NCBI GenBank assembly: GCA_023379125.1
Contig: JAMCSY010000004.1
Span: forward strand, 122,588-186,587
Origin: Patescibacteria group bacterium
Lineage (GTDB): Bacteria; Patescibacteriota; Microgenomatia; Daviesbacterales; UBA10151
Length of the DNA: 64,000 nt
Direction: 5' to 3'
The number at the start of each line of letters is the position of its first letter. Positions within the stretch are counted from its first letter, which is position 1. A program made the translations under genes and the position numbers. The notes beneath the pieces were generated by a model, which saw only the letters and a list, made by a program, of their open reading frames with translations, searched no databases and was not told where the DNA came from. Positions 1 to 15,365 of this stretch are shown here, piece after piece.

Positions 1-1378
1 CGCCGGTTTTAGTATACTACTAGGTCAAAATTGTGTTGGTTATGAGATTAATCCTGACAATACCGTAACACCAAAGCTCTTCTCACAACTACCTAGCGGA
101 GGTGCGCTAGGTGGAGTCAACTCAGCTATGGTAGCCATGTATACCAATCCAGCTGCTTCAACGGGCTATTACTTAGCCTACGTAGGTAATAATCTTGGTT
201 TGGTCAAACCAGCTTATGCAGCAAATGCTAGTGGTATCCCTGGGCAAGGCAGCGATGTTTTATTCCCAGTGCTAAAGCTCTGGGTTTTATCACGAAATAT
301 TGCTTATGCAGCTTTCATCTTAATCTTTGTAATAGTTGGTTTTATGATTATGTTTAGACAAAAAATCAATCCCCAAACAGTTATCACTGCACAACAGGCC
401 CTACCAGGACTAGCGATTGGTTTAGTTTTAGTTACTTTTAGCTACCTAATTGCTTCTGTCTTAGTAGATTTGTCTTTTGTGGTCATGCAAGTCATTGCAG
501 CACTCTTTGACGCTGCTTCAGTAGGAATTACCAATGCTAGTGATCTGGCTCAGAATGGTAACGCGATTGCTATTTTTTGGTCATTTCTATGGTCTGGTGT
601 ACTTGGTAATATATTCACTGGTTTTGCCCAATTATTAACACCCTCACCCCAAGCAGCCCAATTCATTGGCAGCAACGCACTGGGATTTGGGCTTGGACCA
701 GTATTAAACACATTGCTACCAAACTTCACAGAATGGATTGGTACTGTAATTTCTCAAGGAACTGGTTATGTGATTGGTGGCATAGTCACAGTTATAGTAA
801 TAATCGCATTTCTAATACAGATGTTAAGACTTATTTGGGGATTAATTTCCGCCTATATTACTATTCTCGTAATGACTATTCTAGGTCCTGTTATAATTAT
901 GTTTTCTTCAATCCCTGGTAGAAGTGGTGTAATTTCTTTCTGGTGGAAAACAATCTTAGCTAATGTAATGATCTTTCCAGCAGTTTTTGCTGCCTTCCTT
1001 TTTGCTTCATCTATTGTTAGTCAGACGACTACTATCACCACAGCTTTACCGCTCATGGGTGGTTTACCTGCTGTTGGCTCAGTTGACCTACTTAAAGCTG
1101 TTTTAGGATTAGGTATTATGATGGGAACTCCTGCTATTCCTAACATGGTCAAGCAAGCCTTTGGGATTAAAGATGTTCAAGGATTGCCACAAGCAGCAGT
1201 TGCAGGATTCATGGGAGGAATTGCTGCTGGTAGAACAGGTTACGGAGGAATGATGCGTTCAACAGGCTTAGCTGAAGCTCAGGAAGGACTTTCCCGGCAA
1301 AGAATGAGCGATATAGGGACATCATTATCCGGATCTAGAAGAGAAACCATTCTACGCTGGCTGCCCAGGTCCCGCTAA
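1..1378 (+). CDS. Polytopic membrane protein, VirB6/TrbL-like (PrgH/TcpH-type) candidate. It is 5'-partial because the reading frame is open to the window start.
   Basis: Frame 2 has no stop from nt 2 to the listed ATG at 128. There are at least 6 hydrophobic Gly/Ala-rich TM segments and a hydrophilic C-terminal tail. It lies 3 kb upstream of a VirB4 operon. Assignment rests on topology and context only. Confidence 0.4.
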   Translation, partial: AGFSILLGQNCVGYEINPDNTVTPKLFSQLPSGGALGGVNSAMVAMYTNPAASTGYYLAYVGNNLGLVKPAYAANASGIPGQGSDVLFPVLKLWVLSRNIAYAAFILIFVIVGFMIMFRQKINPQTVITAQQALPGLAIGLVLVTFSYLIASVLVDLSFVVMQVIAALFDAASVGITNASDLAQNGNAIAIFWSFLWSGVLGNIFTGFAQLLTPSPQAAQFIGSNALGFGLGPVLNTLLPNFTEWIGTVISQGTGYVIGGIVTVIVIIAFLIQMLRLIWGLISAYITILVMTILGPVIIMFSSIPGRSGVISFWWKTILANVMIFPAVFAAFLFASSIVSQTTTITTALPLMGGLPAVGSVDLLKAVLGLGIMMGTPAIPNMVKQAFGIKDVQGLPQAAVAGFMGGIAAGRTGYGGMMRSTGLAEAQEGLSRQRMSDIGTSLSGSRRETILRWLPRSR

Positions 1379-1441: not shown

Positions 1442-3163
1442 TTATTTTAACTTAAGACTTTCTTGCATAATACCTTTAATGAGATTAAGAATAAACGAGA
1501 TAGCTCCTCCGATTGTGCGCCTAGTGTTTATATAAAAATCTGGGCTGATTGATCCTGGAAATCCCAGAACTTTCTTTAGTACATTTTCACGATCACTCGG
1601 GTTGATAAAGGGAGCTCTTTTTTCATCGGATAAGCCTGTTAAGTTGTTAGCCATCGCTACAATTTCCGTAAAACCATACAGACGCTTACCTGTTTCCGTT
1701 TTTCTAGCTGACTTAGCATATTCAATAAAATTAACAAATAACTGTCTTTTTGTTTCCCACTGTTTTTCACTTAAGTAAGAAAAGGTATCTATCAAAGCAT
1801 ATAAGGAATCTGGAGTTGGGTTTCTTAAAAAAGCATCACTTTTACCATACATCGCATCCCTGGCAGCATCAGGTTGAGCCAGTTTTCTGTAGGCCCAAAG
1901 TCCTGCCGGAGGCTCATTACCGATATTAGCAAAATTTTTATTTGCCCAAAAAGAAGCATCTTTGGGAGCAGTTCCATCATGCAAAAACTCTAATTCAGTA
2001 CTACCATTATCTAAAGTTCTTAGTTTGATGAGACCATCTGGATGATCTTTTTTATCATATCCAAACTCGCTGGATCCTGCCAGATCTGTAAGCCAATCTA
2101 CTGCCCCAAGATTAATACCTTTCATTAACCTAATTATAGGCCTGTTAGACTCTGCTTGGGTCAATAAGAAATCGTTAAATTTCAGAATCCTCCTCATCGT
2201 CCAATCTCCTCCACTCATATCACCTGTAAACTCATATTTATTCTTTTTCTCGTTATAGACTGCTTTATCATGAGATGACATTCTTCCACTGAGACGCCAA
2301 AACCGTTCTGCTAGGTTTTGTATCCATGCGTAATCAGTAGCATGATCACTAGCCCAAGCTTTTCTATCTTCTTTTTCATGATGTCCACCGAAAGCATCAG
2401 CTAATTCGTACTGTATCCTTGCTCGGACGGCATTTTTTGCGGTCCCCCCAGTTTGAATGTATTCTTCGGCGTGTTGCTCATAAAGGTTTAGGGCCTTAAT
2501 AAAACCTGGTAATTGGAAAAGAGTATCCAAATATTCTGAATTAAGCCTGCCAAAGGCTGTTTGGATAGTTTTTACATCAAGCGCAGTCTCGTATTCTAAA
2601 AACGATTGGTGAAAAGTAAAACGTGCAATATATTCTTCGTATAATTTTCTTCCTATATCGCGATTTGGGTCTTCCTTATCAGAATGTTTGGCAATATAAT
2701 CTGGGCTATATAACCCAGAGATCATTAGGCCAATTCTTTCAAACTCTTGTTGTAAACCAGGACCTCCACCAGCAGTTCTAGTTTGCTCCACTTTTGCCAA
2801 CACACTCCGAAGCATATTTATTTTATCTTGCGCCTCAGCTGGAACCATAATTACTCGTGGTCCAAGTTGTGTTTCAACCACCAGTCTTTCCATTCCCGGT
2901 GGCATTGTCCCCTCATCTCCTCTTCTTGGAGGCTCACCAACTGCCGAACTTGTTTCTCCACCAGCTTTAATCTTTTCTCCACGGGCTATCCTTGCCAATT
3001 CATCAGAAATCCTTGCAATCGTTTCTGCTTCATCGACACGAATGCGATGTGTTTTTTCTGGATAATGGTGTACTCTACCATGAGTCTCAATCACTCTAGC
3101 ACGAGCTGTTGGTGTGGGTATTTCTGGACGTGAACTTCCTTCTGGCATGAATTCTGCACTCAT
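1442..3163 (-). CDS. Hypothetical 573-aa protein with no recognisable family. It is Trp/Arg/Asp-rich, soluble and embedded in the T4SS-like locus.
   Basis: Long uninterrupted ORF. It is convergent with the VirB6-like gene. Its amino-acid composition is atypical compared with neighbouring proteins. Confidence 0.5.
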   Translation of the reverse strand: MSAEFMPEGSSRPEIPTPTARARVIETHGRVHHYPEKTHRIRVDEAETIARISDELARIARGEKIKAGGETSSAVGEPPRRGDEGTMPPGMERLVVETQLGPRVIMVPAEAQDKINMLRSVLAKVEQTRTAGGGPGLQQEFERIGLMISGLYSPDYIAKHSDKEDPNRDIGRKLYEEYIARFTFHQSFLEYETALDVKTIQTAFGRLNSEYLDTLFQLPGFIKALNLYEQHAEEYIQTGGTAKNAVRARIQYELADAFGGHHEKEDRKAWASDHATDYAWIQNLAERFWRLSGRMSSHDKAVYNEKKNKYEFTGDMSGGDWTMRRILKFNDFLLTQAESNRPIIRLMKGINLGAVDWLTDLAGSSEFGYDKKDHPDGLIKLRTLDNGSTELEFLHDGTAPKDASFWANKNFANIGNEPPAGLWAYRKLAQPDAARDAMYGKSDAFLRNPTPDSLYALIDTFSYLSEKQWETKRQLFVNFIEYAKSARKTETGKRLYGFTEIVAMANNLTGLSDEKRAPFINPSDRENVLKKVLGFPGSISPDFYINTRRTIGGAISFILNLIKGIMQESLKLK

Positions 3164-3263: not shown

Positions 3264-4127
3264 TTAGTCACACTTTTGGAAATCCTCTTTTCTAGCCCCA
3301 CAATGTGGACAGATAGTAACTCCTTTTCCTTTAGGAATAGGTTTACCACAAAGCTTATTAGGGCAATTAAAGTATTGTTTTGAGTGCTCACTCATATAAG
3401 CAAAGGCTGTCCAATTAACCGGGCAACTGGGAGCATTCTCACCCACAGCACCTATCATCGCTAAATGATCGATAAGTAATTCTGTATCCACCTTGCCATA
3501 CATAGTTACTAACTGATCATAATAATCCTGAATTTGTCCCAAAGCTTCTTCTTTAACTTTAATATCCTTACTACTCCTGATCACTGACAAGTCCAAATTA
3601 TCAACTAGTTCCTCAAGTAAATATGTCCAATTTAAGCCTTGGGTTTTTAGTACCAATGGTGTTGCTCTAACTTGATCTAGAGATGATAAAAAGGGTCGAT
3701 CTTCACTAAATTGGGCCAAATCTCGAGCAAACTGCAAACTGTCTTGTTCATCAAGATCAAGCATAATTGCTCGATTATAGAGATACTTAATCCCTGATTG
3801 TTGGTCTAAATTACTAACTATTATTTTGGAAGCTGGGTAAATTCCTGCAGCTGGTGGACTGACCCAAGCAATAACTCCCTGCTGATGATCACTAACCCAA
3901 TCTTCAATTAAATCAAAGACCTGCCCTTCTAATTGACCAACCAAAGAAGTTCTATCAACCTGTTTTTTAATACCAACCCCTGTTTTTGGAGAAAACAGTT
4001 TCCCCTCGGGTGTTGCCACAAAATAATAAAAATCAGGAATTCTTCTTGTTTCAAAGACGTATGAGGAAGCTTCCCAGGCTGCTTGTGTTAGTGAAGGGGT
4101 TTTTTGATCTACTTGAGTTTCTAACAT
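3264..4127 (-). CDS. Hypothetical protein with a C-terminal Cys4 zinc-ribbon (CPNKLCGKP...CPHCG).
   Basis: 287-aa ORF co-oriented with the 1442..3163 gene. A CxxxxC...CxxC cluster sits at the C-terminus. Confidence 0.5.
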   Translation of the reverse strand: MLETQVDQKTPSLTQAAWEASSYVFETRRIPDFYYFVATPEGKLFSPKTGVGIKKQVDRTSLVGQLEGQVFDLIEDWVSDHQQGVIAWVSPPAAGIYPASKIIVSNLDQQSGIKYLYNRAIMLDLDEQDSLQFARDLAQFSEDRPFLSSLDQVRATPLVLKTQGLNWTYLLEELVDNLDLSVIRSSKDIKVKEEALGQIQDYYDQLVTMYGKVDTELLIDHLAMIGAVGENAPSCPVNWTAFAYMSEHSKQYFNCPNKLCGKPIPKGKGVTICPHCGARKEDFQKCD

Positions 4128-4494
4128 ATTGCTCCTGCTACGGGAAAAACCATCCTTGGATGGTGCGGTCGGTCTCCTGGCTTACCTTTTGCAAAAAAAG
4201 GATTACAGTTGCGGCACAGCTTCTGACTTACACAGAATTCCCTTTTGTGCTTTGCTTCAAAAACTGAAGTAGCACACCGCTTAATCCACGCTATCAAAGA
4301 TTAATTCTTGATGTCAAGACTTAAACCATTTGAGCGAGTTAATACCAAAAATACATTGATCAGTTATAAATTGCTGTTGATAAGTTCTCAAATGATCCTT
4401 TTTGAGGCCCTAGACAAGTGTTTTTTCACGCAATAGCATGAAGAATGATTTCCAACCTTTTGACCAAAGAACAAGACCACTCTCTCACCAGAGA

Positions 4495-4527
4495 AGCTTT
4501 GTGTTATCTAAATAATACTGATATAAT
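4495..4527 (+). promoter_or_regulatory. Putative sigma70-type promoter with an extended -10 (TGaTATAAT) for the T4SS-like operon.
   Basis: tgatataat at 4519-4527 with a weak -35-like TTTGTG 17 nt upstream. It is about 70 nt before the ATG at 4599, in a 470-bp divergent intergenic region. Confidence 0.3.
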
Positions 4528-4598
4528 GCTTTGATTTTGCTAACAAATATAAAAATCTAACAAGAAAGGTTAATCAATTTAGGCTATAGTAAAAATAT

Positions 4599-6029
4599 AT
4601 GGAGCCTCATCCAGTACCACAAAACATAACTTCCTTTGAATTTCATTTAGTTGGGGATATGACACTCAAGCAATTTGGCTATCTAGCTACTGGTTTAGGT
4701 ATTGCTTATTTAATTTTTGTCTTACTTTTTAATACAATACCACTTTTAGCAATCACCCTCATTGCTATTTCGGCAGGTTCTGGGTTTGCTTTTGCCTTTC
4801 TGCCTCTTTATGATCGCCCACTATCACACTGGGTCTCAGCTTATTTTCGAGCTATTTATTCTCCCACTAAACGCTATTGGCAAAACCCTTTAAGTCCCAA
4901 CAGCACAGTTTCTGCTGATGATCCAGCTTTTAGAAATAGACTCAAAGACTTTTTAAGTACAATCGTTTCAGCTGAGCCACAGGCACCAACTCCAACCTCT
5001 GCTGAAAACCTAATTATTCAAAATCAACCATCACCAACTCCAGCAAGCCCCAGCACTAATAAGCCTGTAACTCTAGCAGATCAAAACTCAATACCATCTA
5101 ACTCGCAAATAGAGCAACCTCAACCTACGAGCAACTCCTCTCAAGCTTCTTCTATCACAGCTCAAAACAACCAAGAGCCAGTTGTTTCTTTTTCACCTAC
5201 TAACTCCACTCCGAATAACCCAACAGCTGTTAATACTTCCCCATCTCCCCAGCCAATCACCAGCCCCTATTTTGCCTCCACCCAACCCACTCAGCAAACA
5301 ACTTTTAATCAGGTAACCACCACACAGCAGACAATACCTATGATTGGAGTTACTAATCCAGCACCTATAACTCCTCTGCCAGTTGTTCATCCCCCTGCTC
5401 CACCGAGCTCTACTCCCCCATCTCCTCAAGACATGCCCAGGCCAGAAGAGCTAACCGAGCTTGTCAAACTAGCTCAGGAGGCACGTTCTGTACAATCCAA
5501 AGTAGCAGAAACTCAACGGCGGATTAATGAAATCAAAGCTTCAATCTCCACCCAGGGTAGTCAAAGTGCTGATTATACCGAACAGGCTCAGCAAATGTTC
5601 TCTAACCTGCAAAACTTAATCAAAGAAACTGAGGACCTGTCGACTAAAACCTCACAAATTGTTAAAACTAGTCCAAAAGCTAAGGCGCCAAAGGTCGTAG
5701 TTGTTCAACCCACCAAGCGCACACCAACTCAAGTTTTACTAACCTCAACCCCTAATGTGATCAATGGCATCGTAACAGATCCCGAGGGTAACTACTTAGA
5801 TGGCGTCATTGCCATTATCCATAACAAAGATAATTTACCTGTTAGAGCTTTAAAGACTAATAAGTTAGGCCAGTTTGCAGGCGCTACTCCTCTACCTTCC
5901 GGAGTCTATACCTTAACTCTAGAAAAAGACAATTTGGAGTTTGATTCCATTCAAATTACTTTAAACGGTGAGGTTTTGCCACCAATTAATATCTCAGCCA
6001 AGAGAGGAGTGACAGTTTTAAATGATTAA
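4599..6029 (+). CDS. Membrane protein with four parts. They are an N-terminal 2-TM hairpin (VirB3/PrgI-like position and topology), a long P/T/S/Q-rich low-complexity linker, a coiled coil and a C-terminal carboxypeptidase-regulatory-like beta-sandwich domain.
   Basis: Two adjacent hydrophobic helices at residues 25-70. Disordered segment at about 100-270. Coiled-coil heptads at about 275-340. C-terminal motif GIVTDPEGNYLDGVIAII...LPSGVYTLTLEKD is typical of CarboxypepD_reg/Cna-B-like folds. An 8-nt overlap with the next gene suggests an operon. Confidence 0.5.
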   Translation: MEPHPVPQNITSFEFHLVGDMTLKQFGYLATGLGIAYLIFVLLFNTIPLLAITLIAISAGSGFAFAFLPLYDRPLSHWVSAYFRAIYSPTKRYWQNPLSPNSTVSADDPAFRNRLKDFLSTIVSAEPQAPTPTSAENLIIQNQPSPTPASPSTNKPVTLADQNSIPSNSQIEQPQPTSNSSQASSITAQNNQEPVVSFSPTNSTPNNPTAVNTSPSPQPITSPYFASTQPTQQTTFNQVTTTQQTIPMIGVTNPAPITPLPVVHPPAPPSSTPPSPQDMPRPEELTELVKLAQEARSVQSKVAETQRRINEIKASISTQGSQSADYTEQAQQMFSNLQNLIKETEDLSTKTSQIVKTSPKAKAPKVVVVQPTKRTPTQVLLTSTPNVINGIVTDPEGNYLDGVIAIIHNKDNLPVRALKTNKLGQFAGATPLPSGVYTLTLEKDNLEFDSIQITLNGEVLPPINISAKRGVTVLND

Positions 6030-7047
6030 TAGCACTCAAGACCATATCCCTATCGAAGATATCGTTAACAATTTGGTTTTTCTCAAAGATGGTAGTGTTG
6101 CTCTTGTCATTACTACTTCCGCAGTGAACTTTGGTCTACTTTTTGAAACAGAACAAATAGCCATCATAGATGCATTTGCTGGTTTTCTTAATTCTCTATC
6201 CTTTCCTATTCAAGTTACTATTATTTCCCGTCGATTAGATGTTTCCTCGTATCTGGATACCATCGATCGTGCAAGGGCCAGGCAAAAAAATCAAGCTTTG
6301 TTAGCCATGACTGATCATTACCGACAATTTGTGGAAAGTCTAATTAAAGAGAAGAATGTCTTAGAGAAAAAATTTTATGTTACTTTAAATGTTAGCGGTC
6401 CAGAGTTAGGCTTTTTTAAGCGCAGCACCCTCGATCGCTCCCGTAAAGCAATTACTGTACTTAATCCCCGTAAAGACCATGTTCTTCGACAACTCTCGCG
6501 AATCGGCCTTAAAGCTCGACAGTTGTCAACGGAAGAGCTCGTTAAGCTTTATTATGATATTTATAATCCTGAATACAGCGAAAGCGAGATTGCTGTGGCA
6601 GGCTCAGAAGAAGAATCAGCTGAGACTGAACCTACTTCTGAGAACAAACAACCAGGCGCACCAGTTTCACTTTCTGGAATCCTACAATCACTAGTTTCTC
6701 CTCAAAAACAATCAAGCAACCAAGAACTTACTCCTCCCCAGGAAACAGTTGTTCCTAGTCCAGCCACAACAACCCAGGCAAAACCAGAAATATTTACCAC
6801 CCAAAACACAGCTGAGGAAACTCCTCCAACTCAACCCTTGACAGAGCCAATTGCTCCTGCTGAACCTATTACTCCTTCAGTAACCCCACAACCGCAATTA
6901 GCTCAACCTAGTGCCTTACATCCCTTGTTTTTTGATGCCACCCCCCAAACCTCAACTGTGCAACCTACTCAACCTAGCCAAGCCAACCCTAGTAACACTA
7001 ACACACCATTTGTAGTTGAGGAGCTACCAGAAAATGGCCAACAATAA
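6022..7047 (+). CDS. VirB4/TrbE N-terminal domain protein (CagE_TrbE_VirB-like) with a 150-aa P/T/Q-rich disordered tail. It is the N-terminal half of a split VirB4.
   Basis: The motif IPIEDIVNNLVFLKDGSVALVI...EQIAIIDAFAGFLNSLSFPIQVTIISRRLD matches the conserved VirB4 N-terminus (LKDGSL...RR.D). It ends 14 nt after the ATG of the downstream ATPase gene. Confidence 0.6.
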   Translation: MINSTQDHIPIEDIVNNLVFLKDGSVALVITTSAVNFGLLFETEQIAIIDAFAGFLNSLSFPIQVTIISRRLDVSSYLDTIDRARARQKNQALLAMTDHYRQFVESLIKEKNVLEKKFYVTLNVSGPELGFFKRSTLDRSRKAITVLNPRKDHVLRQLSRIGLKARQLSTEELVKLYYDIYNPEYSESEIAVAGSEEESAETEPTSENKQPGAPVSLSGILQSLVSPQKQSSNQELTPPQETVVPSPATTTQAKPEIFTTQNTAEETPPTQPLTEPIAPAEPITPSVTPQPQLAQPSALHPLFFDATPQTSTVQPTQPSQANPSNTNTPFVVEELPENGQQ

Positions 7048-8767
7048 CCAAATCATCAAAATTCAAGATGTCATCGCCCCAAACAGCCTTGAGGTCGATT
7101 TCACTTACGTTCGCATTAATAAATATCTATATCGAACTTTTTTTGTGGCCGGTTACCCCCGTTTTGTTGAGCCAAATTGGTTAGAGCCACTGGTCTCTTT
7201 CGAGCACTCATTGTTAGTTTCTATGTTTATTTATCCCACTGCTTCCTCTGGAACACTCGAGGATCTTAAAAGAAAGATTGCCGAGATGGAGGCTACCATC
7301 CAAACAGATATTGAAAGAGGACGTGTTGTTGATCCATCAGTAGCTGTTGCTTTAGACGATGCTCGCGAACTACAAGAACAACTTGCTAAGGGAGCTGAGA
7401 GATTTTTCCAGTTTGGTTTATATCTTACAGTTCCTTCAATTGATGTCCAAGAACTAGACAATAGCTCTCAAGTCGTGGAATCTACTCTGGGGAGTATTTC
7501 AATCACTGCACATCCCAGTTCTCTGGAAATGGAAGATGGATTCATCACTACCATGCCTTTAGGTAGAGATAATCTCTATCTAACCCATAACATGGATACC
7601 ACTTCACTGGCTACCACTTTTCCCTTTACTTCATCTGAGCTAACTGCTCCTGAGGGAGTAGTATATGGAATCAATGAGCACAATGATTCCCTGATTATCT
7701 TTGACCGTTTCAGTCAAGAAAATGCTAATTCGGTAGTCTTGGCTACTTCTGGTGCTGGAAAATCGTATATGGTTAAACTAGAAACACTTCGGGCTTTAAT
7801 TCTCGGAGCAGAAGTAATCATTATTGACCCCGAAAAAGAATATGAAGAACTGGCTAAGGCAGTTGGTGGTAGCTATATTAACTTTTCCACCTCTTCTCCA
7901 GTTAAACTTAATCCTTTTGATCTACCAGAGGTCAGCGAGGCTGGAGAAAACGAGCTAGGGAGAAAAATCCTTTCCTTAACTGCTTTTTTGAAGCTAGTTT
8001 TAGGTGATTTAACAGCTCAGGAATCAGCTATTTTAGACCGCGCTTTAAATACCACCTACCGCCTGAAAGGAATCACCCAGGATCCCAAAACCCAGACTGA
8101 TCCTAATATTAAACCTCCGCTGATGGAGGATTTATATAAAGTGCTAATTGGCATGGAAGATCAAGTGTCTTCTGAGTTGGCTATTAGACTAGAACGGTTT
8201 ATTAAAGGTTCCTTAACTGGAATTTTCTCTTCTTATTCTAATCTGAAAATTAATAATCAGTTCACTGTCTTTACAGTCAGAGAGCTACCTGATCAACTAA
8301 GACCACTCGCGATGCATCTGATCCTGGATTATATTTGGACCAAAATCAGAGGTGATTTAAAAAAACGATTACTTGTTGTTGATGAAGCTTGGTATATGAT
8401 GCGTTATCCAGATTCTGCTAACTTTTTGGTAGAGATGGTCAAACGGGCGAGAAAATACTATTTAGGCGTAACAACTATTTCCCAAGACGTAGAAGATTTT
8501 ATTGGTCAAGATAGAGGTAAGGAGATTGTTTCTAACTCAGCTATGCAAGTCTTACTAAAACAAGCCCCTGCTTCAATTGAAACCATTGGTAAGGTTTTTA
8601 ATCTGTCTTACGGAGAAAAGAGACTGCTACTTTCAGCTGGAGTTGGTCAAGGGATTTTCTTCGCTGGTAATACTCATGTAGCAATGAGAGTTGTGGCATC
8701 TGAAGAAGAGCACCAACTAATTACTAGTAATCCACAAGAAATCCTCGCCAGAAGAGGTCCTGTTTAG
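7034..8767 (+). CDS. virB4: VirB4-family T4SS ATPase, C-terminal core. This includes the YPRFVEPNWLEPL region and the Walker A and Walker B (DEAW) motifs.
   Basis: Walker A ATSGAGKSY and Walker B LLVVDEAWYMM, the classic VirB4 DEAW. A TISQDVEDF motif is present. GAGGAG SD at 7018-7023 lies 10 nt before the ATG at 7034. The ORF track lists an alternative TTG at 7016. Confidence 0.8.
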   Translation: MANNNQIIKIQDVIAPNSLEVDFTYVRINKYLYRTFFVAGYPRFVEPNWLEPLVSFEHSLLVSMFIYPTASSGTLEDLKRKIAEMEATIQTDIERGRVVDPSVAVALDDARELQEQLAKGAERFFQFGLYLTVPSIDVQELDNSSQVVESTLGSISITAHPSSLEMEDGFITTMPLGRDNLYLTHNMDTTSLATTFPFTSSELTAPEGVVYGINEHNDSLIIFDRFSQENANSVVLATSGAGKSYMVKLETLRALILGAEVIIIDPEKEYEELAKAVGGSYINFSTSSPVKLNPFDLPEVSEAGENELGRKILSLTAFLKLVLGDLTAQESAILDRALNTTYRLKGITQDPKTQTDPNIKPPLMEDLYKVLIGMEDQVSSELAIRLERFIKGSLTGIFSSYSNLKINNQFTVFTVRELPDQLRPLAMHLILDYIWTKIRGDLKKRLLVVDEAWYMMRYPDSANFLVEMVKRARKYYLGVTTISQDVEDFIGQDRGKEIVSNSAMQVLLKQAPASIETIGKVFNLSYGEKRLLLSAGVGQGIFFAGNTHVAMRVVASEEEHQLITSNPQEILARRGPV

Positions 8768-8821: not shown

Positions 8822-10966
8822 ATGGCTGATCAAGATATCAAGCTTTTAAAAGATACTGAGGATTTAATTCGTGCCTACAATACTGATACCTCGTTTCGTC
8901 ATCGTGTTGATGATTTAATTAATTACCCTGGAGCCACTTATAAGAACAGGCCACTGAGACTTTATGTCTTAACAGTGACCCGCTTTGCTCCCCAATATAA
9001 AGAATACGAACGTTCGAGCAAGCAAAATCCACAAAGAATTTCTGATTTGTTTGTAAACTTTTATAGAGATGGTCCTTTTTCTCGCTTTGCCAGAGAAGCT
9101 ACTACTGACAAAATCTATGGCACGAGAGAGAAAGAGGTTTTAAAAAACATCGAGCAAGATACAGCCCATCCTCAAGAGCAATATAGAAGCTACCATCAAT
9201 TCCTCAATGAGCAAGAAAAACAAGATTCCACACCAGATGAATCGGGAACTGTTGCTGCACCCAGTGCCCAACCAGAGCCTCAGCCAACCAAACCTCCAGC
9301 TCCTAACGATACCGAGACTCCAGAAGTCAGTGTGGAAGCTAATCAGGAACCGACAGAGCCTGCACAGACATTCCTTGCAGAAAACACACAATCTCCTGTA
9401 GAGGTTACAACTGCACCATCAGAAATCACAACAGAATCTTCACCGCCGTCTGTTACTGAAGCTACCCCAACTGAGGCAGTGATAGTTGAGCCACTACCCA
9501 CCACTTCAACATCAGCTAAACTTCCCACAACACCCACAATACAAACTCCCAATATTAAAACACCAAATTTCATAAAAAATATTTCTTCAAGAGTACAAAT
9601 TACTATCAAAAAAATCACTGATAAGATCCCAAGTCAGGTAGGAAACCTATTAGCAGAAATTGGTGGAACTATTTTGGGTACTAAAAAACCTGCCACCGCC
9701 ATACCGTCACCCATAGCCTCCAAATTAGGCGAGCAGACAGAACAAACAATTAGTACATTGCAAATTGGAGCCAAAAAAACTGCTAGCAAGCTATTTTCAT
9801 CACAAACCCTCATAAACTTACTAAACGAGGCAAAAAGTTATATTTTAGGTACGAACGCACAACCTAAATCAACCTCACCGACTATTGGACAATCTCCTGC
9901 TGTCAATAAAACTTTCACTGACATCAGGATTTGGACTAAAAAATTCATCACTCGTTATGCCACACCACGAAAAGTCTTTGCCGGAGTAACAGGAACTATC
10001 GGAGCAGCAGTCGGTGGTGGAGCTACTGGAACATGGGAGGGAGCAGTAGTCGGAGCCGGTACCGGCATAGCAATTGGTATGACTGCACCATCAGTACTTA
10101 GAGAAGACAACACTAATTCCATACTAAATACTGGTGGAAGTATCATGGACAAAGGTGCTGGGTTAATAAATCGTGCCTTTACAACTCAGAATAGAGCCAG
10201 AATTCTTCTCCGGACTGGAAAAGCTTTACTTAGCACGCCCCAAGGGCGGATTGCTGTGATTATAGTTACGGTCGTTATTCTTCTGATTATCTGGATGATT
10301 GCTGACTTACCAAGATCTAGCACTCCCTTCACCCCATATCCTTTGAATGAGTCTGGGCCAGAGATCGGCAATGGGACAACCGGACCAGGCGGCGTACCAA
10401 TTACACCCGGCCCTACTCCACCCCCTGGATCAGATTTAAGCAGCGTACTCGCTTGGGCCAGAATGATTAATGATGAATTAGTTTTAGCAGGTAGCAGTTA
10501 TACTGGACTACCCATCGCTATTTCCAATAACGGCTATACTACTGGTGTTTGGGCTTCTGGTTATGTCTGCACTTACCTCGTCATTGATGCCTATAATCTG
10601 GCTGGTTTTACAGGAACTAGTAAAGCTGCTAACGGTGCTGTTGTTAACTTAGAAAGCTTCTGGAAATCTGCTGGTGATCAAGGTTATATCTATGTTGACT
10701 ATCAAGCAAATCATCAAAATCTACAATATGTTAAACCTGGCTATGCTATCTTTGAAGAACAAATACCAGGAGTCTATACTGGTAATGAGCATACGGCCAT
10801 CGTAACTAATGTTTCAATTGATGCTAATGGTAATGGTTCAATTACTACTATTGATGCTAATGGTGGATTTTATAAGGGCTGGACATACACTGTTTCTAAT
10901 TGGAATATAATTAATACATTCACCGGTAAGTATGGTGAAATAATTACTGGTTTTGGAGGACACTAG
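8822..10966 (+). CDS. Membrane-anchored cell-wall hydrolase with a C-terminal CHAP (NlpC/P60-like) domain. It is the functional analogue of PrgK/VirB1. It has an N-terminal cytoplasmic domain of unknown function and a low-complexity linker.
   Basis: Single TM segment (RIAVIIVTVVILLIIWMIADL) followed by a Pro/Gly linker. The C-terminus has WASGYVCTYLV...GNEHTAIVTNV, a Cys...His CHAP-type catalytic pair arrangement. Confidence 0.55.
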   Translation: MADQDIKLLKDTEDLIRAYNTDTSFRHRVDDLINYPGATYKNRPLRLYVLTVTRFAPQYKEYERSSKQNPQRISDLFVNFYRDGPFSRFAREATTDKIYGTREKEVLKNIEQDTAHPQEQYRSYHQFLNEQEKQDSTPDESGTVAAPSAQPEPQPTKPPAPNDTETPEVSVEANQEPTEPAQTFLAENTQSPVEVTTAPSEITTESSPPSVTEATPTEAVIVEPLPTTSTSAKLPTTPTIQTPNIKTPNFIKNISSRVQITIKKITDKIPSQVGNLLAEIGGTILGTKKPATAIPSPIASKLGEQTEQTISTLQIGAKKTASKLFSSQTLINLLNEAKSYILGTNAQPKSTSPTIGQSPAVNKTFTDIRIWTKKFITRYATPRKVFAGVTGTIGAAVGGGATGTWEGAVVGAGTGIAIGMTAPSVLREDNTNSILNTGGSIMDKGAGLINRAFTTQNRARILLRTGKALLSTPQGRIAVIIVTVVILLIIWMIADLPRSSTPFTPYPLNESGPEIGNGTTGPGGVPITPGPTPPPGSDLSSVLAWARMINDELVLAGSSYTGLPIAISNNGYTTGVWASGYVCTYLVIDAYNLAGFTGTSKAANGAVVNLESFWKSAGDQGYIYVDYQANHQNLQYVKPGYAIFEEQIPGVYTGNEHTAIVTNVSIDANGNGSITTIDANGGFYKGWTYTVSNWNIINTFTGKYGEIITGFGGH

Positions 10967-10972
10967 CAGCAA

Positions 10973-11635
10973 ATGAATCGCACAATTGTCAAGTTGGTTG
11001 TCATAATCATAATTTTGGCTATAGCGTTAGTAGGCACAATCCTGTGGTTAAATAGTCACAATCAAATAGCAGCTATCACTCCTACGGATCAATCCACTGA
11101 TGTTAATATACTCTCTCCTATCCAAGTAACTTTTGCCAAACCTTTTGATAGTAATGCTCAAAAGATGGTTACCTTTTGGACATCACCAGATACTAGTGGC
11201 AAAATAACTTGGTCTGATGATGGTAAAACAGTAACCTATACTCCACAACCACCACTTACTAGTAGCCAAAAATATATCGCTAAAGTTACTTATCTTTCTA
11301 ATCAAAATTTTATCTGGAGTTTTTCAACTACTGCTTTTAATCAGCTGACCCCTGAACAACAAACACAAGCTCAACAACAAGCAGATCAAAATGTGGCCAA
11401 CCAAAGAAACGATCTGCTACAAAAATACCCTTGGTTTCTTAAACTGCCAATTCAAAAGCTAAACTACTTTGTCTATTTTGACCCCACCACTGAGGAATTT
11501 ACGGCCAAAATTTATACCAACAATACTCAAGTTTCCAGTGCTGATTTACAAAAACAGGTTCTAATTGAACTACAAACTTTAGGAATTGATACTAATAAAT
11601 ACAAAATTAATTGGGAAATAAACCCTTCATCTTAA
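10973..11635 (+). CDS. N-terminally TM-anchored protein with an Ig-like (SbsA/Big-like) beta domain. Its position corresponds to VirB8/PrgL-type T4SS subunits.
   Basis: Signal-anchor MNRTIVKLVVIIIILAIALVG. The motif ITPTDQSTDVNILSPIQVTFAKPF...TVTYTPQPPL...YIAKVTY fits the P.dg.t.v.....i.v.F...Y.v.v Ig-like pattern. It is tightly packed in the operon. Confidence 0.45.
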   Translation: MNRTIVKLVVIIIILAIALVGTILWLNSHNQIAAITPTDQSTDVNILSPIQVTFAKPFDSNAQKMVTFWTSPDTSGKITWSDDGKTVTYTPQPPLTSSQKYIAKVTYLSNQNFIWSFSTTAFNQLTPEQQTQAQQQADQNVANQRNDLLQKYPWFLKLPIQKLNYFVYFDPTTEEFTAKIYTNNTQVSSADLQKQVLIELQTLGIDTNKYKINWEINPSS

Positions 11636-11644
11636 AGTTAGTTG

Positions 11645-12097
11645 ATGGAAATTTTCAAAAAGAAACTTATTTGGTTAATTTTAGCTTTGGGAGCAGCTTT
11701 GATCGCTCTTTTTAGTCACGGACTTTATACTGCTACACCTGTACAAACCCTACCCTCTCAACAAACACCTACTATTAATTCTGAACCTCAAGTCATAAAG
11801 ACCGATCCAGATCCACTTAATCAGGCCACTATTTTACCCAATCAAACCATCAGTTTAGAATTCAACTACCCTCTGCAAAATAAAGACGAGTTAAAAATTA
11901 AAATTGATCCTAGTACCGAATTTGAAGTAAATTTAAGTTCTGATCGTAAAACGGCACAAATTACCTTTCCTAATCCACTTGATTTGGGTAGGGCCTATTC
12001 TTTAGTCATCGGTCCAGATACAAAATTTGATGGGGCAAAAAATTTAGGTCATGATATCCAATACCAATTTAAAACTATCAACTACCAGGGAGTCTAA
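11645..12097 (+). CDS. Paralog of the 10973 gene. It is TM-anchored with an Ig-like beta domain.
   Basis: Signal-anchor followed by VIKTDPDPLNQATILPNQTISLEFNYPL...AQITFPNPLDLGRAYSLVI, the same motif pattern. The ATG at 11645 lies within the listed 11642 TTG ORF. Its stop is 3 nt from the dnaN stop. Confidence 0.45.
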   Translation: MEIFKKKLIWLILALGAALIALFSHGLYTATPVQTLPSQQTPTINSEPQVIKTDPDPLNQATILPNQTISLEFNYPLQNKDELKIKIDPSTEFEVNLSSDRKTAQITFPNPLDLGRAYSLVIGPDTKFDGAKNLGHDIQYQFKTINYQGV

Positions 12098-12100
12098 TCA

Positions 12101-13201
12101 TTAGCTTAAGTTTACAGGCATAATAATATATTCTAATCCTTCCTCACCCATTGGTTTTATAATTGCTGCAGAAAGATTTCCTGATAACTCCAAGATTACT
12201 TGGGAAGCTGAGGTAGTAGATAAAGCATCTTGTAAAAACTTAGTATTAAAAGCAATTTCAATCTCCTCTCCTTCTGTCTGGGAAGTTACCTCTCTTTGTT
12301 GATGGCCTAATTGTTTAGCCTCAGAATTAAGAGTTAACTTGGAAGCAGAATTAAGTAGCTTGACTATGTTTGTTTCATTTCGAGCAAAGATCGAAGCCAG
12401 TTTAACTGCTTTTAGTAAATCTTCTCTGCCAGTAATAACTCTTGCTTTGCAAGCAGTCGGAATAATTCTCTCCCAAGCCGGAAATTGACCTTCAATCAAA
12501 CGAGAAGAAACCATCGTAGTCCCAAATTTAAAGATAATTTGATTTTGGTTTTCCGAAGTGGAAATCTCTACTAAATCGGCTTCATCTTCATTAATTAGCC
12601 TTAAAACCTCCTCAAAAGTTCTTCTTGGTACCAAAACCCGCAAATTCTCTTCTTCTGCAATGGGAACGATTTTATGAGCCAAGCGGTATCCGTCAGTAGC
12701 CACTAGTTGCAATTTTTTATCCTTAATTTCTGTCAGAATACCAGTTAGAATAGGCCTCCCATCGTCAGCTGCTGAAGCAAAAGCTACTTGAGGCAAAGAA
12801 CTAATTAATATTTGTGGTGAAATTTTTACTGCTGCTTTACCAGATAATGGAATTGTGGGAAATTCCGTAGCAGCAATACCGTTAATTTGGGAGGAAAAAG
12901 AAGGACTGCTAATTTTCAGCTGGTCAGCAGTGCTTTCAAATTCCAACTGCTCTCCTGATAAATTAGCCACAATCTCGACCAGAGTTTTGGCTGGAACAGT
13001 CACTTCCCCTACTTCACTGTTTTCTGCTTTTAATGTTTTAACTACCCCAATCTCTAGATTTGTCGCGGAAAGCTTTAATTTATCTTGATCCGTGGAAATT
13101 AGGATATTACCTAAAACAGGTAGTTGTGCCCTCACTCCTGCTGAACGAGCTACAGATTGTAAACTTGGCCAAAGATCTTGTTGTAAAATTTTAAACCTCA
13201 T
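12101..13201 (-). CDS. dnaN: DNA polymerase III beta sliding clamp.
   Basis: 366 aa. The N-terminus MRFKILQQDL...ATNLEIGV is typical of DnaN. The gene is located downstream of dnaA. Confidence 0.9.
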   Translation of the reverse strand: MRFKILQQDLWPSLQSVARSAGVRAQLPVLGNILISTDQDKLKLSATNLEIGVVKTLKAENSEVGEVTVPAKTLVEIVANLSGEQLEFESTADQLKISSPSFSSQINGIAATEFPTIPLSGKAAVKISPQILISSLPQVAFASAADDGRPILTGILTEIKDKKLQLVATDGYRLAHKIVPIAEEENLRVLVPRRTFEEVLRLINEDEADLVEISTSENQNQIIFKFGTTMVSSRLIEGQFPAWERIIPTACKARVITGREDLLKAVKLASIFARNETNIVKLLNSASKLTLNSEAKQLGHQQREVTSQTEGEEIEIAFNTKFLQDALSTTSASQVILELSGNLSAAIIKPMGEEGLEYIIMPVNLS

Positions 13202-15282: not shown

Positions 15283-15304
15283 GGAAATGATATTAGTGTA
15301 AAAG

Positions 15305-15365
15305 TTATCCACATGACAAGATACAGTAAGTGTTTCGTAATAGATCATCCCCTACCTTGGGATAA
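15305..15365. promoter_or_regulatory. DnaA boxes in the dnaA upstream region. This is an autoregulatory element and the second oriC element.
   Basis: Perfect TTATCCACA at 15305-15313. TTGGGATAA (reverse complement TTATCCCAA) at 15357-15365. Confidence 0.45.

What the first reader, a model, noticed from the sequence alone, without database searches (positions are those of the whole stretch)
4599..6029. Novel architecture that fuses a VirB3-like TM hairpin to a coiled coil and a carboxypeptidase-regulatory-like beta-sandwich
A VirB3/PrgI-position gene is normally a protein of about 100 aa with 2 TM helices. Here the hairpin is followed by about 170 aa of P/T/S/Q-rich disorder, then a coiled coil, then a C-terminal beta-sandwich domain (GIVTDPEGNYLDGVIAII...LPSGVYTLTLEKD). 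That would put an adhesin- or spacer-like module on the extracytoplasmic side of the channel. It may be a surface-exposed tip or a cell-cell contact element.
Basis: partly seen in the sequence, partly recalled or inferred. Interest (0 to 1): 0.55.

Follow-up and report, generated by a model that had tools for sequence, protein, structure and literature searches.

The report
VirB3/PrgI with long cytoplasmic arm
This gene encodes the small membrane-anchor subunit (VirB3/PrgI) of a type IV secretion machine in an ultra-small Patescibacteria bacterium, carrying an unusual long tail (flexible linker, coiled coil, beta-sandwich) that is common in this lineage and most likely sits inside the cell, not on the surface as first proposed.

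Summary
The ORF (4599-6029, +, 476 aa) and its layout are real. It has a PrgI/VirB3 two-helix membrane hairpin, a ~156-aa P/T/S/Q/N-rich disordered linker, a heptad-patterned helical hairpin and a C-terminal prealbumin-like (CarboxypepD_reg/CnaB-type) beta-sandwich.

It sits directly upstream of TrsD and VirB4, in a chromosomal T4SS cluster next to dnaN/dnaA. This is the known layout of Patescibacteria T4SSs.

The architecture is not unique. More than 1,700 homologues were found, relatives occur in 274 GTDB species (mostly Ca. Daviesbacteria and other Microgenomates-group lineages), and the C-terminal module matches 1,587 clusters at 50% identity.

- There is no third hydrophobic segment.
- The flank after TM2 is strongly K/R-rich.
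- VirB3 termini are described as cytoplasmic.
- In Woykebacteria-type genomes the same module is a separate protein with no signal peptide or TM segment, translated from its own SD/ATG right after a shorter PrgI gene.

Best reading: a cytoplasmic accessory arm tethered to the VirB3-TrsD-VirB4 membrane complex, acting as an adaptor or brace. The location is inferred and the function is speculative. No paper describing the extension was found. I rate it a new variant of a known kind, of moderate interest.

The parts
4599..6029 (+). Whole gene: PrgI/VirB3-family protein of 476 aa with a C-terminal extension
   Evidence: ORF list and translation. Pfam PrgI 29.7 bits against a gathering score of 27. 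Identical protein in NCBI annotated 'PrgI family protein [Patescibacteria group bacterium]'.
4599..4664 (+). Conserved acidic N-terminal tail (aa 1-22, MEPHPVPQNITSFEFHLVGDMT). Predicted cytoplasmic.
   Evidence: Invariant H4, P7, F13, F15, G19, M21. K+R count is 0 in this protein and averages 1.4-1.5 in the family.
4665..4799 (+). Transmembrane hairpin: TM1 aa 23-43, 4-residue turn, TM2 aa 48-67
   Evidence: AF2 helices at pLDDT ~98. Hydropathy segment aa 25-70.
4821..4859 (+). Post-TM2 amphipathic, K/R-rich helix (aa 75-87). This is the C-terminal helix typical of VirB3.
   Evidence: AF2 helix 75-87. It lies within the PrgI Pfam match. Net positive flank. The review describes VirB3 as 2 TM helices plus a C-terminal helix.
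4923..4970 (+). Short conserved helix (aa 109-124, PAFRNRLKDFLS..., near-invariant R114). It resembles the end of the longer middle motif seen in fused-long and split relatives; this resemblance was judged by eye, not tested by alignment.
   Evidence: Conservation profile. AF2 helices 109-112 and 114-124 at pLDDT ~86. Sequences compared: P0161, P0164, P0184.
4971..5438 (+). Disordered P/T/S/Q/N-rich linker (aa 125-280). Most of it is an expansion specific to this protein.
   Evidence: pLDDT <50. Alignment occupancy is 0.01-0.6. Composition: P 21, T 15, S 14, Q 12, N 9%. Family median length is 352-361 aa.
5442..5666 (+). Helical hairpin / antiparallel coiled coil (aa 282-318 and 324-356)
   Evidence: AF2 at pLDDT 83-93. 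Heptad a/d hydrophobicity 0.71 and 0.88 against 0.26 and 0.18. Sub-threshold coiled-coil Pfam hits.
5667..5738 (+). Basic K/P/V-rich connector (aa 357-380; aa 358-380 have pI 11.3)
   Evidence: Composition. Low pLDDT at aa 365-370.
5739..6008 (+). Prealbumin-like (CarboxypepD_reg/CnaB-type) beta-sandwich (aa 381-470), with the near-invariant block LPVRALKTNKLGQFxGATPLP
   Evidence: AF2 seven strands at pLDDT ~95. Foldseek PDB hits 8bdw, 2nsm, 1qmu, 5aq0, 9hfj. PF13620 at 22.7 bits, sub-threshold. Invariant columns.
6022..7047 (+). TrsD-like VirB4 N-terminal-domain protein (341 aa) with a ~150-aa P/T/Q-rich tail and no TM segment. Its ATG overlaps the end of the PrgI gene.
   Evidence: NCBIfam hits: VirB4_plasma 6.9e-10, conju_CD1110 positions 1-171, TrsD 2.1e-6. 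Junction sequence with an AGAGGAG SD.
7016..8767 (+). VirB4 ATPase body (583 aa, TTG start)
   Evidence: NCBIfam conju_CD1110 at 364.7 bits against a cut-off of 325, positions 177-733. Pfam P-loop_TraG 1.1e-24.
8822..10966 (+). 714-aa cluster protein of unknown function. It has one TM segment near aa 495-515 preceded by a K/R-rich stretch, so the P/T/E-rich N-terminal ~490 aa are probably cytoplasmic.
   Evidence: Translation. No Pfam, NCBIfam or PHROG hit. The C-terminal region matches the lectin actinohivin at E 9e-8. Topology is my reading of the sequence.
10973..12097 (+). Two small membrane-anchored Big_5 (bacterial Ig-like) proteins that close the cluster before dnaN
   Evidence: Pfam Big_5 2.4e-8 and 5.5e-8. 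The same genes are present in L001 and L003.
128..1378 (+). 416-aa polytopic membrane protein upstream in the cluster. It is a candidate VirB6-like subunit, but this is unproven.
   Evidence: Translation. No family hit. Homologues are present upstream of the PrgI gene in 27 of 84 related loci.

Best explanation
The gene encodes the VirB3/PrgI subunit of the chromosomal, oriC-proximal, monoderm-type (MPF-FATA-like) type IV secretion system of a Microgenomates-group (Daviesbacteria-like) Patescibacteria bacterium.

The first ~95 residues do the canonical VirB3 job. A two-helix membrane hairpin has a conserved N-tail and a basic C-terminal helix on the cytoplasmic face, and these anchor the TrsD/VirB4 ATPase to the membrane.

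The remaining ~380 residues are a lineage-specific accessory arm that emerges on the cytoplasmic side. It consists of a disordered tether of variable length, a helical hairpin (antiparallel coiled coil) and a prealbumin-like beta-sandwich head.

In some relatives the arm is a separate soluble protein, encoded immediately after a shorter PrgI gene and translationally coupled to it. Fusion and fission of the same two parts imply that they act together at the cytoplasmic face of the machine.

If the stoichiometry is as in R388 (one VirB3 per inner VirB4, six per machine), there would be about six flexible arms around the VirB4 hexamer. Their most likely role is as an adaptor or brace, either recruiting a partner or cargo to the channel entrance or stabilising the ATPase assembly. 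This system usually lacks a neighbouring coupling protein, VirB11 and relaxase.

Shown here: identity, architecture, fold, synteny, distribution and the fusion/fission relation. Inferred: cytoplasmic location. Speculative: adaptor or brace function.
For: Identity:
- PrgI HMM above its gathering score.
- Same layout as pCF10 PrgI: short N-tail, a G-x-T-x-K/R-x-F motif, 2 TM helices and a K/R-rich C flank.
- The gene abuts TrsD and VirB4. This synteny holds in 82 of 84 related loci.
- The cluster lies next to dnaN/dnaA, with 5-6 T4SS_pilin genes upstream in L001 and L003. This matches the published Patescibacteria T4SS survey (PMC12102498).

Cytoplasmic location:
- Only two adjacent TM helices are present. 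No later hydrophobic segment occurs in 119 of 120 homologues or in 68 of 68 species representatives.
- K+R is 5.3-5.9 in the 30 residues after TM2, against 1.4-1.5 in the N-tail.
[quoted passage not shown] VirB3 is listed as IM/cyto and is sometimes fused to VirB4 (PMC12624023).
- The module occurs as stand-alone proteins of 493-679 aa with no hydrophobic segment and a conserved N-terminus.
- These stand-alone proteins are encoded directly after a 225-238-aa PrgI, behind a TAA stop with an AAGGAGG-type SD 8-10 nt upstream of their own ATG. TrsD and VirB4 follow.
- Collinearity: fused-long P0164 residues 1-193 match that PrgI (E 2.5e-37) and residues 160-716 match the soluble protein (E 1e-56). 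The window protein's residues 1-95 and 285-467 match the two parts in the same way.
- P/T/Q-rich low-complexity tails also occur on TrsD, which has no TM segment. Such linkers therefore do not indicate an outside location here.

Functional constraint:
- The beta domain and the helices are strongly conserved, with mean column conservation 0.7-0.9.
- The module matches 1,587 50%-identity clusters, always at the C-terminus.
Against: - The prealbumin/CarboxypepD_reg/CnaB fold is found mostly in extracytoplasmic proteins, and most Foldseek hits are surface, periplasmic or luminal domains.
- P/T/S-rich linkers are typical of wall-spanning regions in monoderm surface proteins.
- Topology rests on hydropathy, the positive-inside rule, homology and the split-gene argument. 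No dedicated predictor or experiment was used.
- A soluble protein without a signal peptide could in principle be exported by the T4SS itself.
- No binding partner was identified. Only monomer models could be made, so the adaptor/brace role is conjecture.
- The beta-sandwich is mildly acidic (pI ~5-6) and offers no obvious ligand clue.
Confidence: 0.6

Rival explanations
1. The hairpin is oriented N-out/C-out, or the tail is otherwise exported. The P/T/S-rich linker would then span the cell wall and display the coiled coil and beta-sandwich as a surface spacer, adhesin or host-contact element. In that case it might stand in for the VirB8-like wall scaffold that surveys rarely find in Patescibacteria.
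For: - Fold relatives are mostly extracytoplasmic: CnaB, carboxypeptidase D/N/M, SusC NTE, S-layer, EMC7, NOMO.
- The linker composition resembles wall-spanning regions.
- VirB8 homologues are scarce in Patescibacteria (PMC12102498).
- 'TM + coiled coil + globular domain outside' is the layout of the VirB8-like TraM/PrgL proteins. This last point is from my own knowledge and the review.
Against: - It would need translocation of a flank carrying 5-6 K/R, with an uncharged 4-residue cytoplasmic loop, against the positive-inside rule.
- It contradicts the described VirB3 topology.
- The stand-alone version has no signal peptide or TM segment.
- Similar low-complexity tails sit on TrsD, which has no TM segment and is homologous to the N-terminal domain of the cytoplasmic VirB4 ATPase.
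Confidence: 0.13
2. The coiled-coil/beta-sandwich module is a cargo or a secreted or pilus-associated component of the T4SS. It would be made in the cytoplasm and then passed through the channel. The fused forms would be tethered or later cleaved versions.
For: - The stand-alone form is soluble, lacks a signal peptide and is encoded inside the T4SS operon.
- T4SS substrates carry C-terminal signals (general knowledge), and the conserved part of the module is C-terminal.
Against: - In 97 of the 150 best representatives the module is covalently joined to a membrane hairpin, which is hard to reconcile with translocation.
- No cleavage motif was seen.
- Tight 1:1 synteny with PrgI-TrsD-VirB4 is typical of structural subunits rather than effectors.
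Confidence: 0.05
3. The extension is functionally neutral domain accretion or low-complexity expansion, of the kind common in Patescibacteria proteins, with no specific role in the machine.
For: - The linker is highly variable in length. Total protein length ranges from 318 to 576 aa among species representatives.
- Neighbouring proteins also carry low-complexity tails.
Against: - The helices and the beta-sandwich are strongly conserved, with many invariant residues.
- They are retained across 1,587 50%-identity clusters.
- They are kept even when split off as a separate, translationally coupled gene.
Confidence: 0.04

Closest known systems
PrgI (pCF10) / VirB3 (Agrobacterium) / TrwM (R388): the small inner-membrane VirB3 subunit of type IV secretion systems
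   Same: - Pfam PrgI match above threshold.
- Two adjacent TM helices.
- Conserved short N-tail.
- K/R-rich C-terminal helix.
- Gene directly upstream of, and overlapping, the VirB4-type ATPase gene.
   Different: Canonical VirB3 proteins are 10-15 kDa with only short cytoplasmic extensions; pCF10 PrgI is 117 aa. This protein adds about 380 aa (linker, coiled coil, beta-sandwich). Direct profile-to-sequence similarity to pCF10 PrgI is weak (hhalign E 0.063).
VirB3-VirB4 fusion proteins (e.g. Campylobacter plasmids, CagE)
   Same: This is a precedent for a large cytoplasmic domain fused to the C-terminus of the VirB3 hairpin. It supports a C-in topology.
   Different: There the fused partner is the ATPase itself. 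Here it is a non-enzymatic coiled coil plus beta-sandwich, and VirB4 (split into TrsD and the ATPase body) stays separate. The Patescibacteria survey found no VirB3-VirB4 fusions.
Patescibacteria oriC-proximal T4SS (Quinonero-Coronel et al. 2025, PMC12102498; Wang et al. 2023 for Ca. Southlakia epibionticum, as cited there)
   Same: - Same gene set and order: PrgI, TrsD, VirB4.
- VirB2-like pilin arrays in relatives.
- Position next to dnaA/dnaN.
- No relaxase and no VirD4-type coupling protein among the ORFs scanned nearby.
   Different: The survey treats PrgI/VirB3 as a component to be counted and does not mention a C-terminal extension or its split form: the terms 'coiled', 'carboxypeptidase' and 'extension' have 0 occurrences. 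It reports only 22.6% of Microgenomatia VirB3 homologues near virB4, whereas 82 of 84 loci examined here have the PrgI-TrsD-VirB4 order.
CarboxypepD_reg (PF13620) / CnaB / transthyretin-like beta-sandwich domains
   Same: Same fold class by Foldseek (E 1.6e-5 to 1e-3, target-normalised TM 0.6-0.76) and the same signature, T-x-x-x-G-x-F ... L-P-x-G-x-Y.
   Different: The Pfam score is below the gathering cut-off, both here (22.7) and in relatives (19-30 bits). The predicted compartment is the cytoplasm, whereas most family members are extracytoplasmic. No LPXTG motif or wall anchor is present. CnaB isopeptide residues were not examined.
VirB8-like TraM/PrgL of Gram-positive T4SSs (TM + coiled coil + globular domain)
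   Same: Superficially similar plan: a membrane anchor followed by a coiled coil and a small globular head, within a monoderm T4SS.
   Different: The VirB8-like head is an NTF2-like fold on the outside of a single-pass anchor. Here the head is a prealbumin-like sandwich after a two-pass hairpin, predicted to lie inside. No NTF2-like protein appeared among the listed Foldseek matches.

Membership tests
VirB3 / PrgI family (PF12666) | Match to the family profile at or above the curated threshold | tested here: met
   PF12666 at 29.7 bits against a gathering score of 27, aa 5-92, profile positions 1-89 of 91.
VirB3 / PrgI family (PF12666) | Two transmembrane helices followed by a C-terminal helix | tested here: met
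   AF2 helices 23-43, 48-67 and 75-87 at pLDDT 84-98. Hydropathy. The defining description is taken from PMC12857230.
VirB3 / PrgI family (PF12666) | Gene immediately adjacent to virB4 | tested here: met
   The stop overlaps the ATG of TrsD (the VirB4 N-domain protein), and the VirB4 body follows. The same order holds in 82 of 84 related loci.
VirB3 / PrgI family (PF12666) | Small size (10-15 kDa) with only short cytoplasmic extensions | tested here: not met
   476 aa, with ~380 aa beyond the VirB3 core. It is therefore an extended variant, not a canonical member by size.
VirB3 / PrgI family (PF12666) | Both termini cytoplasmic; 1:1 binding to the VirB4 N-terminal domain | not testable with these tools
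   Only indirect evidence is available: charge bias and the split soluble homologue. No multimer modelling or experiment was possible.
CarboxypepD_reg (PF13620) | Profile match at or above the gathering score | tested here: not met
   22.7 bits against 32.3. Ten split-type relatives score 19-30 bits, also below the cut-off.
CarboxypepD_reg (PF13620) | Seven-strand prealbumin/transthyretin-like beta-sandwich fold | tested here: met
   AF2 gives seven strands at pLDDT ~95. Foldseek matches carboxypeptidase N/D/M domains, CnaB2, SusC NTE and transthyretin at E 1.6e-5 to 2e-3.
CnaB-type domain | Intramolecular Lys-Asn/Asp isopeptide bond with a catalytic acidic residue; occurrence in LPXTG-anchored surface proteins | not tested
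   The best Foldseek hit is a CnaB2 domain. Isopeptide geometry was not examined. No LPXTG motif is visible in the translation.
Coiled coil | Heptad periodicity of hydrophobic residues in long helices | tested here: met
   Family-wide a/d hydrophobic fractions are 0.71 and 0.88, against 0.26 and 0.18 at other positions. AF2 gives two helices of ~35 residues. The oligomeric state is unknown.
Patescibacteria MPF-FATA-like chromosomal T4SS | VirB4 of the monoderm CD1110 type with TrsD and PrgI neighbours, close to oriC, with no relaxase nearby | tested here: met
   conju_CD1110 at 364.7 bits against a cut-off of 325, and TrsD 2.1e-6. dnaN is at 12101-13201 and dnaA at 13954-15348. No relaxase or VirD4 was found among the cluster ORFs or the 20 large ORFs scanned. 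VirB4 phylogeny was not done.

The most novel reading that the evidence does not exclude
The VirB3 arm is the cytoplasmic substrate or partner receptor of a non-conjugative Patescibacteria T4SS. About six flexible coiled-coil/beta-sandwich arms under the membrane would take over the docking role that coupling proteins (VirD4) or VirB11 play elsewhere. The fused and split forms would be two solutions for attaching this receptor to the VirB3-TrsD-VirB4 platform. This would be a previously unrecognised class of T4SS inner-membrane-complex accessory.
Probability: 0.2. Interest if true: 0.7.

Novelty: new variant of a known kind. Interest (0 to 1): 0.42.

Why it matters
T4SS genes, including PrgI, are reported to be essential for the epibiotic growth of the one genetically tractable Patescibacteria strain, and what the system transports is unknown (PMC12102498; PMC12857230). 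VirB3 is the least understood core subunit.

A conserved extension of roughly 200-800 aa on VirB3, present across more than 1,500 sequence clusters and existing in both fused and split forms, defines an extra, lineage-specific part of the machine. It gives a concrete handle (the beta-sandwich head) for pull-downs or multimer modelling to find what the machine binds.

It is also a caution. A 'surface-type' fold and a P/T-rich linker do not by themselves indicate surface exposure in these genomes.

Tried and rejected
- **PDB sequence searches.** The N-terminal profile (A2) and the C-terminal profile (A3) gave no meaningful relatives, only chance matches to membrane proteins and coiled coils.
- **Direct comparison with pCF10 PrgI.** Profile-to-sequence comparison was weak (E 0.063). 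Membership therefore rests on the Pfam model and on shared layout.
- **Frameshift or artefact.** I considered that the long ORF might be two genes joined by an error. More than 100 collinear homologues rule this out.
- **Recoded stop in the split form.** I considered that the split form might be a read-through stop. This is rejected: the stop is TAA, followed by ATG, with a strong SD just upstream.
- **Nucleic-acid binding by the beta-sandwich.** The domain is mildly acidic (pI ~5-6), which does not favour this.
- **Second copy in the window.** A search for another copy of the hairpin or the module found none.
- **Literature.** Searches for a description of the extension found nothing.
- **Paired PrgI-TrsD or sandwich-VirB4 multimer model.** Not attempted.
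- **Side follow-up of the riboswitch-controlled 287-aa protein.** Its fold has no significant PDB match.
- **Failed look-ups.** One Rfam call exceeded the size limit. One paper look-up, Mossey et al. 2010, was not held.
Full report
**1. Observation**

The ORF at 4599-6029 (+) is real. It starts at ATG and encodes 476 aa.

Pfam places a PrgI family match (PF12666) on aa 5-92 at 29.7 bits, above the gathering score of 27. A CarboxypepD_reg match (PF13620) on aa 388-456 scores 22.7 bits, below its cut-off of 32.3. A set of coiled-coil families gives sub-threshold hits on aa 276-363.

An AlphaFold2 model built on 120 homologues has mean pLDDT 72. It shows:
- two TM helices, 23-43 and 48-67, at pLDDT ~98
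- an amphipathic helix, 75-87
- a short helix, 109-124
- a disordered stretch, 125-280, at pLDDT <50
- two helices of ~35 residues, 282-318 and 324-356, at pLDDT 83-93
- a seven-strand beta domain, 389-466, at pLDDT ~95

The disordered stretch is 71% P/T/S/Q/N. Family-wide, the a/d heptad positions of the two helices are 71% and 88% hydrophobic, against 26% and 18% elsewhere.

Foldseek against the PDB puts the beta domain in the prealbumin/transthyretin-like class. Hits include CnaB2 8bdw (E 1.6e-5, TM 0.69), the C-terminal domains of carboxypeptidases N, D and M, the SusC NTE domain, EMC7 and transthyretin.

The description is therefore correct in all its parts.

**2. Surroundings**

The gene's stop overlaps the ATG of a 341-aa ORF (6022-7047). 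That ORF matches the N-terminal domain of VirB4 and the TrsD family, and it carries a ~150-aa P/T/Q-rich tail. It is followed by the VirB4 ATPase body (7016-8767; conju_CD1110 at 364.7 bits against a cut-off of 325).

Downstream lie a 714-aa protein of unknown function, two membrane-anchored Big_5 proteins, then dnaN, a resolvase-like gene, dnaA and yidC. The rest of the window holds housekeeping genes: LeuRS, TsaD, GroEL, MetRS, SbcCD and UvrD. None of the 20 large ORFs I scanned is a relaxase or a VirD4.

In two longer relatives the same cluster begins with five or six T4SS_pilin genes.

This is the chromosomal, oriC-proximal, monoderm-type T4SS of Patescibacteria described by Quinonero-Coronel et al. 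2025, with PrgI, TrsD and VirB4 as its common core (PMC12102498).

**3. How common it is**

The identical protein is in NCBI as 'PrgI family protein [Patescibacteria group bacterium]'. A homology search returned 1,754 proteins at E <= 1e-3 among the 8,000 candidates scored. The best 120 are 326-476 aa long, and most carry both Pfam domains in the precomputed annotation.

Among one-genome-per-species representatives, 274 species encode a relative. The named ones are mostly Ca. Daviesbacteria, with some Microgenomates and Gottesmanbacteria. The order PrgI-extension, TrsD, VirB4 holds in 82 of 84 loci.

Protein length varies from 318 to 576 aa among the 68 full ORFs recovered. Almost all of the variation is in the linker. 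The long linker of the window protein is mostly an expansion of its own, with alignment occupancy 0.01-0.6 over aa 131-270.

The N-terminal 95 aa, a short motif around R114, the two helices and the beta domain are strongly conserved.

A profile of the C-terminal 200 aa matched 1,587 clusters at 50% identity (1,400 at E <= 1e-10). In every match listed (the best 150) the module lies at or near the C-terminus.

**4. Which side of the membrane**

Four lines of evidence point to the cytoplasm.

(a) There are exactly two adjacent TM helices joined by a 4-residue turn, so both ends lie on the same side. No later hydrophobic segment exists in 119 of 120 homologues or in 68 of 68 species representatives.

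(b) The 30 residues after TM2 carry on average 5.3-5.9 K+R, with net charge about +3.6. The N-tail carries 1.4-1.5, with net charge -1.5, and the turn carries essentially none. By the positive-inside rule the termini are cytoplasmic.

[quoted passage not shown] PrgI is modelled 1:1 on VirB4 (PMC12857230). VirB3 is listed as IM/cyto and is sometimes fused to VirB4 (PMC12624023). pCF10 PrgI (117 aa) shows the same K/R-rich C flank.

(d) The module also exists as a stand-alone protein. Of the 150 best representatives, 97 are fused to the hairpin, 35 are fragments or unclear, and 18 are full-length proteins of 493-679 aa. These 18 have no hydrophobic segment at all and share a conserved N-terminus, MxQGPxVxKR..GGPPSDLPxxPLxYPGK. 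Pfam sees in them only coiled-coil families and CarboxypepD_reg, all below their cut-offs.

In Ca. Woykebacteria-type contigs the gene for this stand-alone protein follows a 225-238-aa PrgI gene directly. The junction is TAA|ATG with an AAGGAGG-type Shine-Dalgarno 8-10 nt upstream, and TrsD, VirB4, dnaN and dnaA follow.

A long fused protein (P0164, 717 aa) is collinear with the two split parts. Its residues 1-193 match the split PrgI (E 2.5e-37), and residues 160-716 match the soluble protein (E 1e-56). The window protein matches both parts in the same way: residues 1-95 at 45% identity and residues 285-467 at 34% identity.

A protein made without a signal peptide or membrane anchor starts in the cytoplasm. 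Its fused counterpart leaves the membrane on the K/R-rich side. Both facts agree.

The linker composition is not evidence for an outside location here. TrsD, which has no TM segment, carries a similar tail. The 714-aa neighbour also has a P/T/E-rich region upstream of its single TM segment, whose K/R-rich flank precedes it (my reading).

**5. Most likely mechanism**

The N-terminal ~95 residues act as VirB3 does elsewhere. The hairpin sits in the membrane, and the cytoplasmic tail and helix hold the TrsD/VirB4 ATPase. This follows from established knowledge of VirB3 (R388 structure as summarised).

The extension is a cytoplasmic arm: a flexible tether, a helical hairpin and a beta-sandwich head. 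It occurs both fused to PrgI and as a translationally coupled neighbour, and it is under strong sequence constraint. It is therefore best seen as an additional structural or adaptor subunit of the inner-membrane complex.

With R388-like stoichiometry there would be about six arms per machine. I favour a docking or bracing role at the channel entrance, since coupling protein, VirB11 and relaxase are usually not encoded nearby. This last step is conjecture.

**6. Rival explanations**

- *Extracellular spacer or adhesin.* This remains possible, at about 0.13. The fold class and linker type are typical of surface proteins, and VirB8-like wall scaffolds are rarely found in this phylum. It conflicts with lines (a) to (d) above.
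- *Secreted cargo or pilus-associated part.* The covalent fusion to a membrane hairpin in most members argues against this.
- *Neutral accretion.* Strong conservation and retention as a separate gene argue against this.

**7. Comparison with what is known, and novelty**

By profile, helices and gene position, the protein is a member of the PrgI/VirB3 family. It fails the family's size criterion, so it is an extended variant.

The beta domain has the CarboxypepD_reg/CnaB fold but stays below the Pfam threshold.

VirB3-VirB4 fusions are the nearest precedent for a large cytoplasmic domain on the VirB3 C-terminus, and the review mentions extended VirB6 proteins as another case of accretion on inner-membrane-complex subunits.

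I found no paper that mentions this extension or its split form, although databases already annotate the two domains automatically.

I therefore rate it a new variant of a known kind and of moderate interest.

**8. Limits**

- No dedicated topology predictor, multimer model or experiment was available.
- Taxon names come from record titles. Many of these are generic or wrong, for example 'uncultured Gammaproteobacteria', and 'Nanoarchaeia' on a contig that carries bacterial dnaA, dnaN and rnpA.
- Whether other Patescibacteria classes, such as Saccharimonadia, have any form of the arm was not determined.

**9. Seen in passing**

- A full-length cobalamin riboswitch sits in the divergent intergenic region next to the gene. 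It is conserved in 4 of 10 relatives and precedes two uncharacterised genes.
- VirB4 is split into TrsD and the ATPase body.
- The 714-aa neighbour has a lectin-like (actinohivin) match at its C-terminal end.

Noticed in passing
window 4150-4296 (-): A full-length cobalamin riboswitch (RF00174, 58.9 bits against a gathering score of 31.5, E 4.9e-12) lies in the 470-bp divergent intergenic region, 23 nt upstream of the 287-aa ORF 3264-4127 (-). The 573-aa ORF 1442-3163 (-) follows. Both ORFs have no family assignment, and both are embedded in the T4SS cluster of a genome type generally considered unable to make B12. The riboswitch is found at the same place in 4 of 10 related loci (L001, L005, L013, L016).
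   Followed up: partly
window 3264-4127 (-): The riboswitch-controlled 287-aa protein (NCBI: 'zinc ribbon domain-containing protein') has only 14 detectable homologues and invariant C-terminal cysteines. Its AF2 model is good (pLDDT 80, pTM 0.71), but it has no significant PDB fold match (best E 0.009; a weak PAS-like resemblance). Function is unresolved.
   Followed up: partly
window 6022-8767 (+): VirB4 is encoded in two overlapping ORFs. The first is a TrsD-like N-terminal domain (341 aa) with a ~150-aa P/T/Q-rich tail. The second is the ATPase body (583 aa, TTG start, 32-nt overlap). The split matches the published TrsD + VirB4 pattern in Patescibacteria. Tail length varies widely among relatives: the ORF called immediately downstream of the PrgI gene (the TrsD position) ranges from 101 to 462 aa.
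   Followed up: partly
window 8822-10966 (+), C-terminal ~200 aa: The 714-aa cluster protein has no Pfam, NCBIfam or PHROG hit. Its C-terminal part matches the lectin actinohivin (PDB 3a07, 4den) at E 9e-8 in three short stretches. This suggests a carbohydrate-binding repeat on the predicted outside of the membrane.
   Followed up: no
L086-L090 (Ca. Woykebacteria-type contigs), e.g. L088 3844-6222: The PrgI gene and the gene for the coiled-coil/beta-sandwich protein are in the same reading frame. They are separated only by TAA followed by ATG, with a strong SD inside the end of the PrgI gene. This is a clean natural fission of the protein that is fused in the window.
   Followed up: yes
84 related loci (L001-L084): The published survey reports that only 22.6% of Microgenomatia VirB3 homologues lie near virB4 (PMC12102498). 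Here 82 of 84 loci with this PrgI variant have TrsD and VirB4 immediately downstream. The discrepancy was not resolved. It may reflect which profiles detected which proteins in the survey.
   Followed up: no
window 4515-4530 (+): An extended -10-like element (TGATATAAT) lies about 70 nt upstream of the PrgI ATG, and no clear Shine-Dalgarno precedes that ATG. The downstream TrsD start does have one (AGAGGAG). This is my own reading of the sequence. The consensus promoter scan did not exceed its shuffled controls.
   Followed up: no
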